Below the pieces are notes generated by a model. The model saw only the letters and a program-made list of their open reading frames with translations, was not told the DNA's origin and ran no database searches. Below are positions 32,313-64,000 of a stretch of 64,000 nucleotides of DNA, piece by piece. Source of the DNA: Felis catus (Eukaryota); NCBI RefSeq assembly GCF_018350175.1, contig NC_058375.1:13950001-14014000 (forward strand), given 5' to 3'. Made by a program: the position numbers and the translations under genes. How positions within the stretch are numbered: position 1 is the first letter of the stretch; every line of letters starts with the position of its first letter.

Positions 32313-39400
<7,088 letters not shown>

Positions 39401-41488: not shown

Positions 41489-48813
<7,325 letters not shown>

Positions 48814-51800
48814 GAGGTCGGCGCCTGCGCGCTGAGGCGCTTCGAGCCCCGCCCACCCGCCGCCAGAGAGGAGCCTGGAGGCGGTGAGGGAACGGAGACA
48901 AGCTGCGCACAGCCCCACCGCGCACGCTCCGCTTGCTCGCACCGCCCCCAAGGTCTATAGACTCCGCCCACGGCGCAGGAGGCGGAGCCGCGCGGCTCAG
49001 GGGCGGGGCGGGGTTTCGGGTCAGCTGACCTAGGCTGTGGAGACTCAACCCAGAAGCCGGAGCTGTGCTGTGGATCTTGGCGCGGTGAGGCAGGTTTGAG
49101 GCTGGGGGCAAGGATGACGGCTGCGGGTCGGGACTCTGGGGCGTCTCTGCCACATTTTCCAATAACCTCCTCCAGCCCCTAGACCGTCTTGGGGCTTCTG
49201 TCCCCTCCTTCGGGTACGAGATCCCGGGACAAGGCTCTGAGCCGGGATTAGGTGGCCCCTGGGGGGCATACGTTCCCCTCCTGAGCATGGCCTCTCAGCC
49301 GAGCCTGTCCAGGGATTAGTATCTGAGTCCCCTGTTCACCTCCTGGTTCCGGCGGTCGGCCCCCGTCGTGTCCGACGGCTTTGTTTTCTCCAGGGCAGGC
49401 CATGGGAGGGGGCCTCGCGGCGACTGAGCGCTGACCCCAGCAGCTGCCCTGTCATTATCCGCGCCAAACAGGCGGCTCGCGCGGGGCTGAGTCACCAGGT
49501 GGCCACGGACCTGGAGGCCTTGGAGTGGGTGGTATCCACCAGCGGGGACGCCCCTCCCCTCCACAGACGCCGCGGTTCTGTTGGGAGCCCAGATTGCCTC
49601 CTCCCCTCATGCCTAGGACAAGTTTTCAAGTGTGTACATTGGGAGGCTGGGTTTGGAAGACTGGCGCGGGTCTTGTCCATTCAACACTTAAAGGCTGCTT
49701 TGCGCCAGGGACTTGCGGAGGGCGGTAGAGGAGCGGGGGACACGAGGCAACCAGTGCTTAGCCTGTACCGGGTACCATCCTCATTTCTTGGCCTCAATTA
49801 TGTCATTTAATTCTGCAGTTTGTAATTCTGCAGTCTAGGAGATGGATACCTAGGTTATCCGCCCCCCCCCCCCCCCCGCCCCATTGTATAGATTGGAATT
49901 CTGAGGCTCAGTCACTTGCCCCGGAGTTCTATACCTTGTAGGCATCAGGCAGGTCAGTTCTAGGGTGTTCTCTCCTCAGACCTAGGTCATCTGAACTCAC
50001 GACTAGTTTCTTTCCTTCCTTCCTTCCTTCCTCCTCTTTCCTTTCTATATTCCTCTCTGTCTCCTCTTTCTTCCTCAGCACTTTCTGAACCTTTATTGTG
50101 CAGCTGGTGTTTCCAGCCCTGAGAGTCCGTCACAGCTAGGGTGAAGGGAGGGGTGTGGGCTTGAAGAGCAGGATTAGCTGAGGAATGTGATAAGCATTCT
50201 TCAGGTATGTGAAGGGGGGGGCGGTGGGGTGACAGGTGTCATCCAGCCAGCCTTTGCAAGACCTCTTTGAGATGACATGTTAGAACTCGGTCTCAGTGTC
50301 TCCTTTACCAGGCCCTCCAGGGGCAGAAGGACACTCCTCGGGGAAGAGACCACACGTGCGGAAGCCTGGAGGCCTGCAGCTTCCTTGGGAAGCTTCCATG
50401 GGAAGCATCTCCGTGATTCAGCTTGCGATCCGAGAGAGGAACTTGGTATGGCAGGTGATGCCTTCTCCAGCACAGCCTTTCTCAGAGTGTGGCCGTGTGC
50501 ACCAGAATCGGATGGGGTTGCCCTTTTTTTTTTTTTTTTTAAGATTTTAATTTTAGGTAATCTCTACACCCAGTGTGGGGCTTGAACTCACAACCCCGAG
50601 ACCTAGAGTCACATGTTCTACCAACTGAGCCAGCCAGGCATCCCAAATCCCTGTGTTTAAGGCTGCTTCTTAAACCCAAAGACCCTGATCTGAAGTCCAG
50701 AGACACTGTTCCTGAATTCTGGACACGTACCCTCTGTGGTTCCAAGACACCCCTGCTGTGGTCCTTGTCAAACCTGTGGATGCAGCCAAACTTTGTTGGG
50801 ACCCCGGGCATCTGTTCTCACAGTGCTATTTGACCAAGAGGTGGGCCCCTTTCCAGAAGCCAGGCCTGGGGCCCAGGCTGGCTCTTTAGCTGGGTCAGAA
50901 CTTATAGGTGACGGGCTGTACGCACAGCGGCCCCCAGGGGAAGGCCCTCTGGTAAGGACTCATGTGCATCTTAGAGTGCCCTGAGTTGTACGCATGCCCT
51001 GTGCATGGATAGGAGACCACCCACCTAGTGCTCTGGGCCCTCTGAGCCAAGCTATGATTCTCAAGACACCCCCTTCCCTCACTGGGCATGTGCTCACCTT
51101 ATTTCCTCCCTAACCTGGTGAAAAGGATGGGGGGTGAGGGAGTGGCCTCAGGGTGGTTGAGCTATAGGGTTCTCATCCCTCAAGCAGTCATCAGCCTGAC
51201 AGCCAGTCAGGCGCTGGGCTAAGAGCCTCATATGTGCTTCATCTGCACCACAAACCCCAAGGAGTGAGTGTCATCATCCCCATTTTATAGAGAGGCTCAG
51301 ACGGGTTCCTCACTTGGGCAGGGCCACCCGACCTTATCTGGAAAACGGAGACCCTCTCCACTACCTCGCAGGGAAGTTACGAGGGTGGCGATGTATTCAT
51401 GTGATGGGCTGGATGGGCACACTCAGAATCTGTAAGAGGACGGCTGGGAGTCCAGTTGGGAGGTGGCTGGGGGACCAGAGGACTTGCTCTGAGATGCCTT
51501 TAGCCCAGCAGAGATACAGTTCTAACCTGGATTGTCTGTTAACCTGGGTGGCCTCGCAGGTGCTAGTGGCAAGACATCAGGTCAACAGCTCCCACGTGGG
51601 CTGTGCTGAAGGTCATCAAGGTGGGTTACCAGGATGCCGGTAGAGGCTATCAGCACCCTTTCTGGGCCCCGGAGGTACTGCAGAGAACCGGGCAGACAGT
51701 GACCTGGATGCCCTTGCCCCCAGCTCAGGGCCTCTGCTCGTGGCCAGTCACAGTTGGGCTGAGAGTCTCCAACTTCCTGAGAAGAGAAGCTGACTTGCTT

Positions 51801-61200: not shown

Positions 61201-63494
61201 GGAATCACAGGAATCCTCTGCCTTCCCCACCAGGACTGTAAAGTCTTTTTTTTTTTTTTTTTAATGTTTATTTATTTTTGAGAGAGAGGGGCAGAGCATG
61301 AGTGGGGGAGGGACAGAGAGAGAGAGAGGGGGAGACACAGAATCCGAAGCAGGCTCCAGGCTCTGAGCTGTCAGCTCAGAGCCGGACGCGGGGCTCGAAC
61401 CCATGAACCGCGAGATCATGACCTGAGCCGAAGTCGGACGCCCCACCGACTGAGCCACCCAGGCGCCCCAGGACTGTAAAGTCTTGATGGCTCCTGTACC
61501 AGCCAGACCAGAGCCCTCACTTAACCTCCCAGTCCCGTTCTGTATCCTGCACGTTTTCTCCCTCTGCCTCCCTGATCTCTGCCGGGTAGAAACTGTGCTC
61601 CCCTCCTTCCCAGATAAGGAGACAGAAGGTCAGAGAGGTGAAATGAATCGGCCGGGCCACCCGGCTGCTGACTGAGCCCGGCCGTGCTGTCGGCACATGG
61701 TCCGCAGAGCCTGGGAGCCCTGTTTGTCTTGCAGACCTACACGGCGGTATATTACGTACTGGCGGACCTGCTGATGCTGTCACTGTACTTTCATTACAAA
61801 TTTAAGAAACGCCCCTCGCTGTGTGAGTACGGGGTCCCTCTGGTCGGGCGTGTCGGGGGCAGCGGGAGAGCCGGCAGCCTGGGAGGAAGTGGGTTTCCCA
61901 TTGCCCAGTGATAAACTCAGCGCAGGGCCTTATCTGCAGGTCTGAGCCCCAGCTGGCCACAATGGAGGCTGGAGGGTGATTGGCACATCCTGGCAGGACC
62001 GCAGGGACTTCCCTTCTCTTGAGCTCTCATTCAGCAAACGTGGCTTCAGCTGCTCCTCTGTGCCTGGCCCTGGGCTTGGAGCTGAGGAACCGAGGACAAG
62101 GACAGGTCCTCGCTGCCCTTGAGGATTGAGAAGGGGGAGGTCAGATGGAGGCACTTGGGGGTGGGGCTGTTTCGCTGGCATTTCCGTGTGGGATAACCCC
62201 CTCCTGATCCTGCTGCCTTCGTCTCTCCTTTACCACCCGAGGAGAAGGGTGCTATGATTACACCCGTTCTGTAGATGAGGAATTAAAGCTCAGAGAGGTT
62301 CGGTTACTTGCCCAGAGTCACACAGCCGCTGAAGGGCAAGGCCAGGACTCAAGTCCTGGTCTGTTTCCTGCCACTGATAACCTAACCGTGGCTTTCCACC
62401 TGCCTCGCGCCCAGTGTCTACCCCCATCAATTCTCTGCTCCTGTTCATTTTGGCAATGGTGTGTACCACCCCACTGCTGAGGAGTGCTGGCCCCGTGACT
62501 GCCCCGAGCGAAGTCTTCCGGGGGCGGACGCTTCTGTCAGTGGAGCCGGGCAGTAAGGTGAGGTGCGGGTCTGGTAGGGTGGGGTGTGGATTGGGGGCTG
62601 GCTCGTCGTCCCCAAGGACCCTGCCCTGCATGGCCGGGGGGGGGGGGGTGGGCACTGCCCTCTCCCAGGGGGCCTGGGGTCTTGCCCTGCACCTCTGGCC
62701 CCTGTTAGGCACTGAGCACCCCCTCCCTCCCAGCCCTTCACTCGGCAGGAAATCATCGGCTTCGTCATCGGCTCTGTCTCCAGCGTGCTGTACCTGCTCT
62801 CCCGGCTGCCTCAGATCCGCACTAACGTGAGCCTGGGGCAGGGGTGGGTGGACCCCCTGTGTTGAGGTGTGGAGTTTCGCAAAAGGTCTGGGTCCAAACT
62901 CACTGTTGGCTTGGGCAAGTGCATCCAGTTCCCGAAGCCTCAGTTTCTGCCTCTGGGGAGTGGGCACGGGCCGCCTACGGGCACGTGTGTCCCGTGTGTG
63001 TCTCAGGGAAGCAGGAGGTCACGCGAGGTCAGGGGCTAGGCCCAGAGTCCTGAGAGGAGAGGAGAGAGTGGCATATTGGGGCCAGGGGGGCCAGCGAGGG
63101 TCCGTGGGGGGCGGGGGAGCGGGCCATCGTGGGGCCAATGTCCCATGGGCCTGGAACGGGTGTAGGGGTGCGGGTCGTGGATACCGGGTGCACAGGGAGA
63201 CGTCAGCTCAGAGCACGCACAGTGCAACAGGGACGTGTGGACAGGGACAACCCAGGGTGACAAGAGTCCTGTCTGCGGCCTCCGACCCCACCCCCTCCTC
63301 ACCCCTAGTTCCTGAGGAAGTCGACCCAGGGGGTCTCCTATTCGCTGTTCGCGTTGGTGATGCTGGGGAACACGCTGTACGGGCTGAGCGTGCTGCTCAA
63401 GAACCCCGAGGTGGGTCAGAGTGAGGGCAGCTACCTGCTGCACCACCTGCCCTGGCTCGTGGGCAGCCTGGGCGTGCTGCTGCTGGACACCATC
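53459..63494 (+). CDS. SLC66A1: Lysosomal cationic amino acid transporter PQLC2/LAAT1, six coding exons (last coding exon off-window)
   Basis: Exons 53459-53622 (MVWKKLGSGNFSSCPNGS...FAASTFP), 60786-60915 (QYIKACKTG...ADQLPLQ), 61735-61822, 62415-62557, 62734-62826 (...LSRLPQIRTN), 63309-63494 (FLRKSTQGVS...LLLDTI). Both PQ motifs are present. Confidence 0.96.
54435..58075 (-). mobile_element. Old L1 (L1MB-like) interrupted by nested SINEs and several LTR elements
   Basis: Antisense L1 pieces at ~54435-55005, ~55690-56225 and ~57900-58075. LTR-like inserts at ~56230-56700, ~56745-57470 (MER21-like: CATCAGATCCCACAGGTTAAGGGCTCAGTCCCACA) and ~57495-57900. Confidence 0.65.
55090..55670. mobile_element. 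CAN-SINE cluster (minus ~55090-55335, plus ~55359-55575, short minus ~55575-55670)
   Basis: SINE bodies in both orientations. Confidence 0.85.
58175..58598. mobile_element. Inverted CAN-SINE pair with (ATTT)n
   Basis: Minus ~58175-58370, plus ~58399-58598. Confidence 0.85.
59975..60419 (-). mobile_element. Young CAN-SINE (~60001-60224) nested in the tail of an older CAN-SINE
   Basis: TSD AACGTTTATTTATTTT at 59985-60000 and 60225-60240. Confidence 0.9.
61248..61469 (-). mobile_element. CAN-SINE
   Basis: 16-bp TSD AGGACTGTAAAGTCTT at 61232-61247 and 61470-61485. Confidence 0.92.
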
Positions 63495-63628
63495 GTATCC
63501 TTCAGGGGCGGGGCTGAGGGCGGGGCAGAGGGCGTGGTGGGGCGGGGCGTGCTGCTGCTGGACCCCATCATATCCTTCAGGGGCGGGGCGGGGCGTGCTG
63601 CTGCGGGACACCGTCCTATCCTTCAGGG
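63470..63628 (+). repeat. Three tandem copies of the exon end plus U12 donor (GGGCGTGCTGCTGCTGGACACCATC-NTATCCTTCAGGG)
   Basis: Donor-equivalent octamers at 63495 (GTATCCTT), 63570 (ATATCCTT) and 63616 (CTATCCTT), separated by GGGGCGGGG runs. Confidence 0.95.
63495..63502 (+). promoter_or_regulatory. U12-type (minor spliceosome) 5' splice site GTATCCTT of the last SLC66A1 intron
   Basis: Exon ends ACCATC followed by GTATCCTTC, matching the RTATCCTT U12 donor consensus. Confidence 0.85.
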
Positions 63629-63872
63629 ACTGGGCAGCGTGGGGCCGGCTTGGCAGCCTCCGCCTGCACACGGCTCCGCACCCACCCATCCAAGCACCCC
63701 GGGAGGCACCAGACCCGGCGGTGAGCAGGAACCGAACGGCCCTCGCCTGGGAAGCTTACAGCTCAGTGAGGGGGCAGTTGGCACGCATGGAGTGATCAGA
63801 GTGTGGCGCCGGGGGCTGTCTTGGTTTAGAAGGTCAGCCAAGGCCACCACAGTGCCATTTAAACTGCCCCGA

Positions 63873-64000
63873 AGAGGTGCCTGAGTGGCTCAGTTAAGTG
63901 TCAGGCTTCAGCTCAGGTCATGATCTCGAGGTTTGTGAGTTCAAGCCCCACATCGGGTGCTGTGCTGTCAGCACCAAGCCTGCTGGGGATCCTCTGTCCC
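63873..64000 (+). mobile_element. CAN-SINE, cut by the window end
   Basis: SINE head sequence. Confidence 0.8.

What the first reader, a model, noticed from the sequence alone, without database searches (positions are those of the whole stretch)
63495..63577. Possible 25-aa exon extension of SLC66A1 via the second (AT-type) U12 donor
Seen: ATATCCTT lies exactly 75 nt downstream of the real donor, and the frame is open (VSFRGGAEGGAEGVVGRGVLLLDPI). Splicing there would duplicate the GVLLLD(T/P)I segment of the last transmembrane helix without a frameshift. The third copy (+121 nt) is out of frame and starts with C. Inference: this is a candidate for competing GT- and AT-type minor donors on one intron, possibly as an AT-AG hybrid, and a snapshot of U12 subtype switching.
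Basis: partly seen in the sequence, partly recalled or inferred. Interest (0 to 1): 0.7.

Follow-up and report, generated by a model that had tools for sequence, protein, structure and literature searches.

The report
Duplicated minor splice donors in SLC66A1
In this cat gene the end of an exon and its rare-type splice signal occur three times in a row; the first copy gives the normal protein, and the two altered copies are likely near-silent leftovers, though their use in RNA is untested.

Summary
The sequence observation is correct. SLC66A1 (PQLC2) has an 884-nt U12-type GT-AG last intron. A 37-nt unit (exon end plus donor) recurs at +75 nt (AT start, 35/37 identical, in frame) and +121 nt (CT start, 34/37, out of frame). 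No AC lies near the branch point, so the AT copy could only splice AT-AG in frame. The open frame is weak evidence (64% of shuffles are open). None of 161 proteins examined carries the +25-aa junction; 11 of 16 felid records use the GT donor normally. Published reporter work shows GT donors beat AT donors in tandem. The layout has precedent: human CPLANE2 and LMBR1L each have GT and AT minor donors annotated on one AG. Best reading: a local duplication left outcompeted pseudo-donors with at most trace use. It is not a subtype switch in progress, because the working donor is still GT. RNA junction reads could not be tested. Side lead: pangolin and squirrel protein models imply an AT start at the real orthologous donor, and human AT-AG introns often follow an exonic C (6/14 versus 3/30 GT-AG), which suggests CpG decay as a route to GT-to-AT switching.

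The parts
63309..63494 (+). Penultimate coding exon of SLC66A1, 62 codons (residues 207-268), phase-0 end
   Evidence: Exact match to felid protein P0122; translation
63495..63506 (+). Copy 1: working U12 GT donor; exon C and intron G form a CpG at -1/+1
   Evidence: the human orthologue is listed as U12 GT-AG with the same donor
63507..63544 (+). G-rich linker of imperfect GGGGC units that sets the 75-nt spacing
63545..63581 (+). Copy 2: duplicate of exon end and donor; AT start at 63570; changes at -6 and +1
   Evidence: 35 of 37 identical to copy 1
63591..63627 (+). Copy 3: duplicate with CT start at 63616; changes at -11, -3 and +1; out of frame
   Evidence: 34 of 37 identical to copy 1
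63628..63720 (+). Likely ancestral intron start, now displaced behind copy 3
   Evidence: Orangutan read-through tail fits here (z 5.3 anchored; z 1.9 local); bat z 2.7 local; 4 of 6 tails uninformative
63713..63726 (+). 8-nt microexon candidate and U2-like GT donor at 63721 inside the minor intron
   Evidence: Reproduces the junction and shifted frame of Prionailurus model P0075; may be a gene-prediction artefact
63495..64000 (+). Part of the 884-nt U12 GT-AG intron that lies in the window. It runs on past the window end: branch site CCTTGAC at L002:1359 (A at L002:1364), AG ending at L002:1379, last exon from L002:1380 with 23 codons and the dileucine sorting motif
   Evidence: same 15-nt branch-to-end spacing as the human orthologue; no AC within 8-24 nt of the branch A; motif role from PMC4649669

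Best explanation
The exon end and U12 donor of the last SLC66A1 intron are present in three tandem copies, and the two downstream copies are likely outcompeted pseudo-donors, with the AT copy predicted to give at most trace AT-AG splicing. Shown: the three copies, the single branch site and AG, and normal GT-AG splicing in felid protein records. Inferred: slippage between G-rich ends duplicated the unit twice; copy 2 lost its +1 G by CpG deamination (CG to CA) and copy 3 by a transversion; the minor spliceosome keeps choosing the upstream GT donor because GT outcompetes AT and AT-AG pairing is disfavoured; the 75-nt spacing is in frame by chance (1 in 3).
For: Copies and single AG acceptor. 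0 of 161 proteins show copy-2 peptide joined to the last exon; 11 of 16 felid records are canonical, 2 are Lynx forms with 3 extra residues at the acceptor, 1 is a microexon model, 2 are read-through. GT strongly preferred over AT in tandem P120 reporters (PMC8280824 section 11). AT-AG disfavoured and inefficient (PMC3584512); 15 AT-AG against 555 GT-AG human minor introns (PMC13602164). Duplicated downstream donors in F7 intron 7 are functional yet silent (PMC1557585 abstract; a U2 case). The insertion would split one hydrophobic peak (1.99) into two weaker ones (1.77, 1.77). Two searches found no non-cat relative of the read-through peptide.
Against: No RNA reads were examined, so silence is not shown. 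Copy 2 matches working human AT-AG donors (XPO4 at -3..+8, INPP5B at -3..+9). Human CPLANE2 has a predicted isoform using an AT donor 11 nt downstream of its GT donor on the same AG. Pangolin and squirrel models imply an AT donor works in this very context. Protein databases are biased against AT-AG junctions, only 120 of 397 hits were listed, and 13 of 14 members of the felid cluster were read. I saw no numbers for the reporter figure, nor which acceptor it used.
Confidence: 0.72

Rival explanations
1. One reading: copy 2 is a real alternative donor, spliced AT-AG at an appreciable, perhaps regulated level, giving a 316-aa protein with a split last helix and an intact sorting motif.
For: In frame, escapes NMD as it is the last intron, donor identical to natural AT-AG donors; annotated GT/AT pairs on one AG in CPLANE2 and LMBR1L; AT start inferred at the orthologous donor in pangolins and squirrel.
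Against: 0 of 161 proteins; GT outcompetes AT; open frame expected 64% of the time; the human precedents are predicted XM/XR models only.
Confidence: 0.12
2. Copies 2 and 3 act as U11 decoys, or like a USSE: they bind U11/U12 without splicing and so raise retention of the intron or shift nearby U2 site choice.
For: Positions +2..+12 are intact in both copies; U11 RNA does not pair with the first three intron bases; a cat intron-retained isoform is annotated (P0134); tandem non-splicing U12 donors regulate SNRNP48 and RNPC3.
Against: This intron is already retained at 14-46% in human control samples, and read-through models exist in vole, bat, orangutan, buffalo and yak. The 48K protein reads +1..+3, so copy 3 should bind poorly. 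No alternative upstream U2 acceptor was found or sought. No conservation shown.
Confidence: 0.12
3. The repeat is an assembly error in a G-rich stretch.
For: G-rich short repeats are error-prone (own knowledge).
Against: The copies differ from each other at 2-4 of 37 positions; the same ORF is on 4 ENA contigs; 18 runs from 9 studies hold at least half of the sampled words, one independent run 0.95.
Confidence: 0.02

Closest known systems
Human CPLANE2 (RSG1) and LMBR1L minor introns (dataset of PMC8280824)
   Same: A GT and an AT U12 donor annotated on one shared branch site and AG; the GT form is the curated transcript and the AT-AG form a predicted one. In CPLANE2 the AT donor lies downstream, as here.
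   Different: Offsets are +11 nt (out of frame) and -201 nt (upstream, non-coding model); here +75 is in frame and the unit includes 25 nt of exon. Use of the cat AT donor is not annotated.
Human F7 intron 7 minisatellite pseudo-donors (PMC1557585, abstract)
   Same: A repeat unit spanning the exon-intron border creates downstream donor copies; the upstream one is used.
   Different: F7 is U2-type with identical copies; here the intron is U12-type and both copies are changed at +1.
Engineered tandem A-type/G-type P120 reporter (PMC8280824)
   Same: Two minor donors of different subtype in direct competition.
   Different: Artificial; the cat locus is a natural version with an AG-only acceptor.
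USSE of SNRNP48 and RNPC3 (PMC8329584, PMC3584512)
   Same: Tandem U12 donor motifs not used for splicing.
   Different: The USSE is deeply conserved and activates an upstream alternative U2 acceptor; neither is shown here, and copy 3 lacks a purine at +1.
AT-AG U12 introns as subtype-switch intermediates (PMC1557818 Tables 2-3)
   Same: One G-to-A change at +1 with the AG kept; XPO4, ACTR10 and SCN10A are AT-AG in human and GT-AG in mouse.
   Different: Those switches are at the working donor. In cat the change is in a spare copy; the working-donor switch is inferred only for pangolins and squirrel.

Membership tests
U12-type GT-AG intron (from 63495, 884 nt) | RTATCCTT donor | tested here: met
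U12-type GT-AG intron (from 63495, 884 nt) | CCTTRAC branch site close to the acceptor | tested here: met
   Branch A 15 nt from the intron end, as in human; the optimum quoted is 11-13
U12-type GT-AG intron (from 63495, 884 nt) | Orthologue classed as minor and responsive to minor-spliceosome defects | tested here: met
   Human PQLC2 is listed as U12 GT-AG; retention rises from 0.46 to 0.83 in ZRSR2 mutants
AT-AG U12 alternative intron (from 63570, 809 nt) | Consensus A-type donor | tested here: met
   Same as INPP5B at -3..+9
AT-AG U12 alternative intron (from 63570, 809 nt) | Spliced product on record as protein | tested here: not met
   0 of 161 proteins; annotation bias applies
AT-AG U12 alternative intron (from 63570, 809 nt) | Junction present in RNA reads | not testable with these tools
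AT-AC U12 intron | AC acceptor at working distance from the branch site | tested here: not met
   No AC at 8-24 nt from the branch A
U12 subtype switch | Terminal base changed at the same, working exon boundary | tested here: not met
   The cat working donor is GT. For pangolins and squirrel it is inferred from proteins only
USSE | Tandem U12 donor consensus | tested here: inconclusive
   Copy 2 fits; copy 3 has C at +1; 46 nt apart
USSE | Activates an upstream alternative U2 acceptor | not tested
   No such isoform among the felid proteins; no RNA test
USSE | Conservation across vertebrates | tested here: not met
   Read-through models of orangutan, bat, vole, squirrel and two unnamed proteins show the exon-end motif once only in frame

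The most novel reading that the evidence does not exclude
The cat intron is a natural, in-frame contest between GT and AT minor donors, with the AT-AG form reaching several percent when minor-spliceosome conditions change and yielding a transporter with a split last helix. The same exon-C/intron-G CpG has driven GT-to-AT switching to fixation at the real donor in pangolins and a squirrel, exposing CpG decay as a general route to AT-AG intermediates.
Probability: 0.12. Interest if true: 0.62.

Novelty: new member of a known kind. Interest (0 to 1): 0.33.

Why it matters
Alternative splicing of minor introns is described as almost absent, and how GT and AT subtypes interconvert is open. If the AT copy is used, this locus gives a natural in-frame read-out of GT-versus-AT competition. 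If silent, it is an ordinary duplication. The more portable result is the side lead: one orthologous intron that appears GT in most mammals and AT in two lineages, after a codon that ends in C in cat and human, makes the CpG route to subtype switching testable on existing genome alignments.

Tried and rejected
RNA junction test: runs were found, but no reads were laid, so use of the AT donor and the level of retention remain open. Dating the duplication: two searches with the read-through peptide found only the cat ORF or nothing (limited lengths, not evidence of absence in other felids); no relative genomes are held. Selection against duplicate donors: both copies are hit at +1, with odds 0.4% under uniform change, about 10% with CpG weighted tenfold, and 21% if any of +1..+8 counts; suggestive only. 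Ancestral flank test: informative for 1 of 6 tails anchored and 2 of 6 weakly local. Structure: no solved relative; the AlphaFold model is low-confidence (pLDDT 50.8) and only loosely places residue 268 in helix 245-279. AT-AC pairing rejected. Tamandua P0115 was dropped from the I-S-F tally as a plain substitution in the last exon. Shares of 0.68-0.75, including organism B, were not used as evidence for the repeat. PMC1370826 was not held. PMC1874599, PMC11347168 and the TOGA2 preprint passages added nothing specific; the preprint's supplements are closed and might list orthologous intron ends. Earlier scan findings: none.

Full report
Locus. The window ends inside SLC66A1 (PQLC2). Felid protein P0122 maps exactly to six exons in the window, the last at 63309-63494. 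The read-through ORF is identical to a protein labelled Felis catus (P0134). I fetched the neighbouring DNA and found the last exon 379 bases past the window end (L002:1380), behind a CCTTGAC branch site and an AG. The intron is 884 nt, GT-AG. The human orthologue is listed as U12 GT-AG with the same donor and the same branch-to-AG spacing (supplements of PMC8280824 and PMC13602164).

Observation. Confirmed. The exon end and donor recur at +75 (AT start) and +121 (CT start), 35 and 34 of 37 bases identical to the working copy. G-rich linkers separate them. The block is single-copy in the genome. The reading frame to copy 2 is open, but 64% of shuffles are also open, so this says little.

Origin (inferred). 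The sequence after copy 3 resembles the start of the intron in other mammals: an orangutan read-through tail fits there at z 5.3 when anchored, and orangutan and bat tails fit weakly in a local alignment (z 1.9 and 2.7); four of six tails were uninformative. This fits an insertion of about 121 nt made of two extra units. The junction C|G is a CpG, so the G-to-A change in copy 2 is the expected methyl-C decay product (established chemistry, own knowledge). Both copies are changed at +1, which could mean selection removed rival GT donors, but the odds run from 0.4% to 21% depending on the null. The age of the duplication is unknown.

Could copy 2 splice? There is one branch site and no AC 8-24 nt after it; the choices are AG (in frame) or an AT two bases on (frameshift). 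Copy 2 equals the human INPP5B AT-AG donor at -3..+9, so it is competent on paper. Against use: in tandem reporters GT donors were strongly preferred over AT donors (PMC8280824, section 11 read, figure values not seen); AT-AG is called disfavoured (PMC3584512 passages) and is rare, 15 against 555 (PMC13602164 passages); in F7, duplicated downstream donors stay silent (PMC1557585, abstract only).

Is it used? No RNA reads could be examined, so this is open. At protein level, 0 of 161 sequences held show the copy-2 peptide joined to the last exon. Of 16 felid records, 11 are canonical, 2 Lynx forms add three residues at the acceptor, 1 Prionailurus model uses an 8-nt microexon, and 2 read through the intron. 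The search listed 120 of 397 hits, 13 of 14 felid cluster members were read, and annotation under-calls AT-AG junctions, so this is modest evidence. The +25 form would replace one hydrophobic peak of 1.99 by two of 1.77 while keeping the C-terminal dileucine signal (PMC4649669 passages); a cost to function is likely but untested.

Precedent. The human minor-intron table in PMC8280824 lists two genes with GT and AT donors on one AG: CPLANE2 (AT 11 nt downstream, predicted transcript) and LMBR1L (AT 201 nt upstream, predicted non-coding transcript). So trace use in cat is plausible (I put it near even odds), and the layout is known. Searches for this locus or mechanism in print: PQLC2 with minor intron, 0 papers; minor intron, subtype and CpG deamination, 0; U12, CpG and hypermutability, 6 papers, 4 listed, none on this by title; duplicated donors, 5 papers. 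The library lacks most subscription papers.

Side lead. Models that run into the intron show the donor as a peptide. It reads V-S-F (GT start) in vole, orangutan, bat, muntjac, buffalo, yak and cat, but I-S-F (AT start) in pangolins and red squirrel. Of 12 pangolin cluster members, 6 show I-S-F-R, 4 show the normal junction and 2 lack the motif. This implies a working AT donor at this same intron in two separate lineages; it is inferred from proteins, and the acceptors are unknown. In the human table, 6 of 14 AT-AG minor introns follow an exonic C, against 3 of 30 GT-AG in one page of another table (p 0.019) and 4 of 26 AT-AC pooled from two pages (p 0.12). These are hand counts on small samples, made after the idea. 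XPO4, ACTR10 and SCN10A, which are AT-AG in human and GT-AG in mouse (PMC1557818 table), all have C at -1.

Verdict. Real feature, most likely outcompeted pseudo-donors from a local duplication (0.72); appreciable AT-AG isoform 0.12; U11 decoy 0.12; artefact 0.02. It works like F7 pseudo-donors and resembles CPLANE2. It is not shown to be an alternative intron, and it is not a subtype switch in cat. Interest 0.33, part of it from the CpG lead.

Noticed in passing
Orthologues of 63495 in proteins P0013, P0138, P0140-P0143 (Manis) and P0019 (Sciurus vulgaris): Read-through or mis-spliced models begin I-S-F where other mammals have V-S-F, implying an AT-start U12 donor at the working site in pangolins and squirrel.
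   Followed up: partly
Human minor-intron tables: AT-AG minor introns follow an exonic C more often than GT-AG ones in small samples (6 of 14 versus 3 of 30), as CpG decay would predict.
   Followed up: partly
63713-63721: An 8-nt microexon with a U2-like donor reproduces the frameshifted Prionailurus model P0075; real cryptic U2 use or a prediction artefact.
   Followed up: partly
Acceptor region, L002:1371-1391: Two Lynx isoforms (P0124, P0130) carry three extra residues at this junction, implying an acceptor 9 nt upstream; whale models (P0151, P0155, P0157-P0159, P0161) lack four residues, implying an AG 12 nt downstream.
   Followed up: no
63495-63884: Intron retention keeps the frame open to a stop at 63882, giving the annotated 421-aa cat isoform P0134, which lacks the sorting motif and should escape NMD.
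   Followed up: partly
From about 63866 to the window end and on (L002:867-1071): A SINE-like element with an A-rich tail lies inside the minor intron (recognised by eye as a carnivore SINE; label recalled, not tested).
   Followed up: no
39003-39140 and 48671-48829: The N-terminal part of a 737-aa dog model (P0042) matches these upstream stretches, suggesting a chimeric model joined to a neighbouring locus.
   Followed up: no
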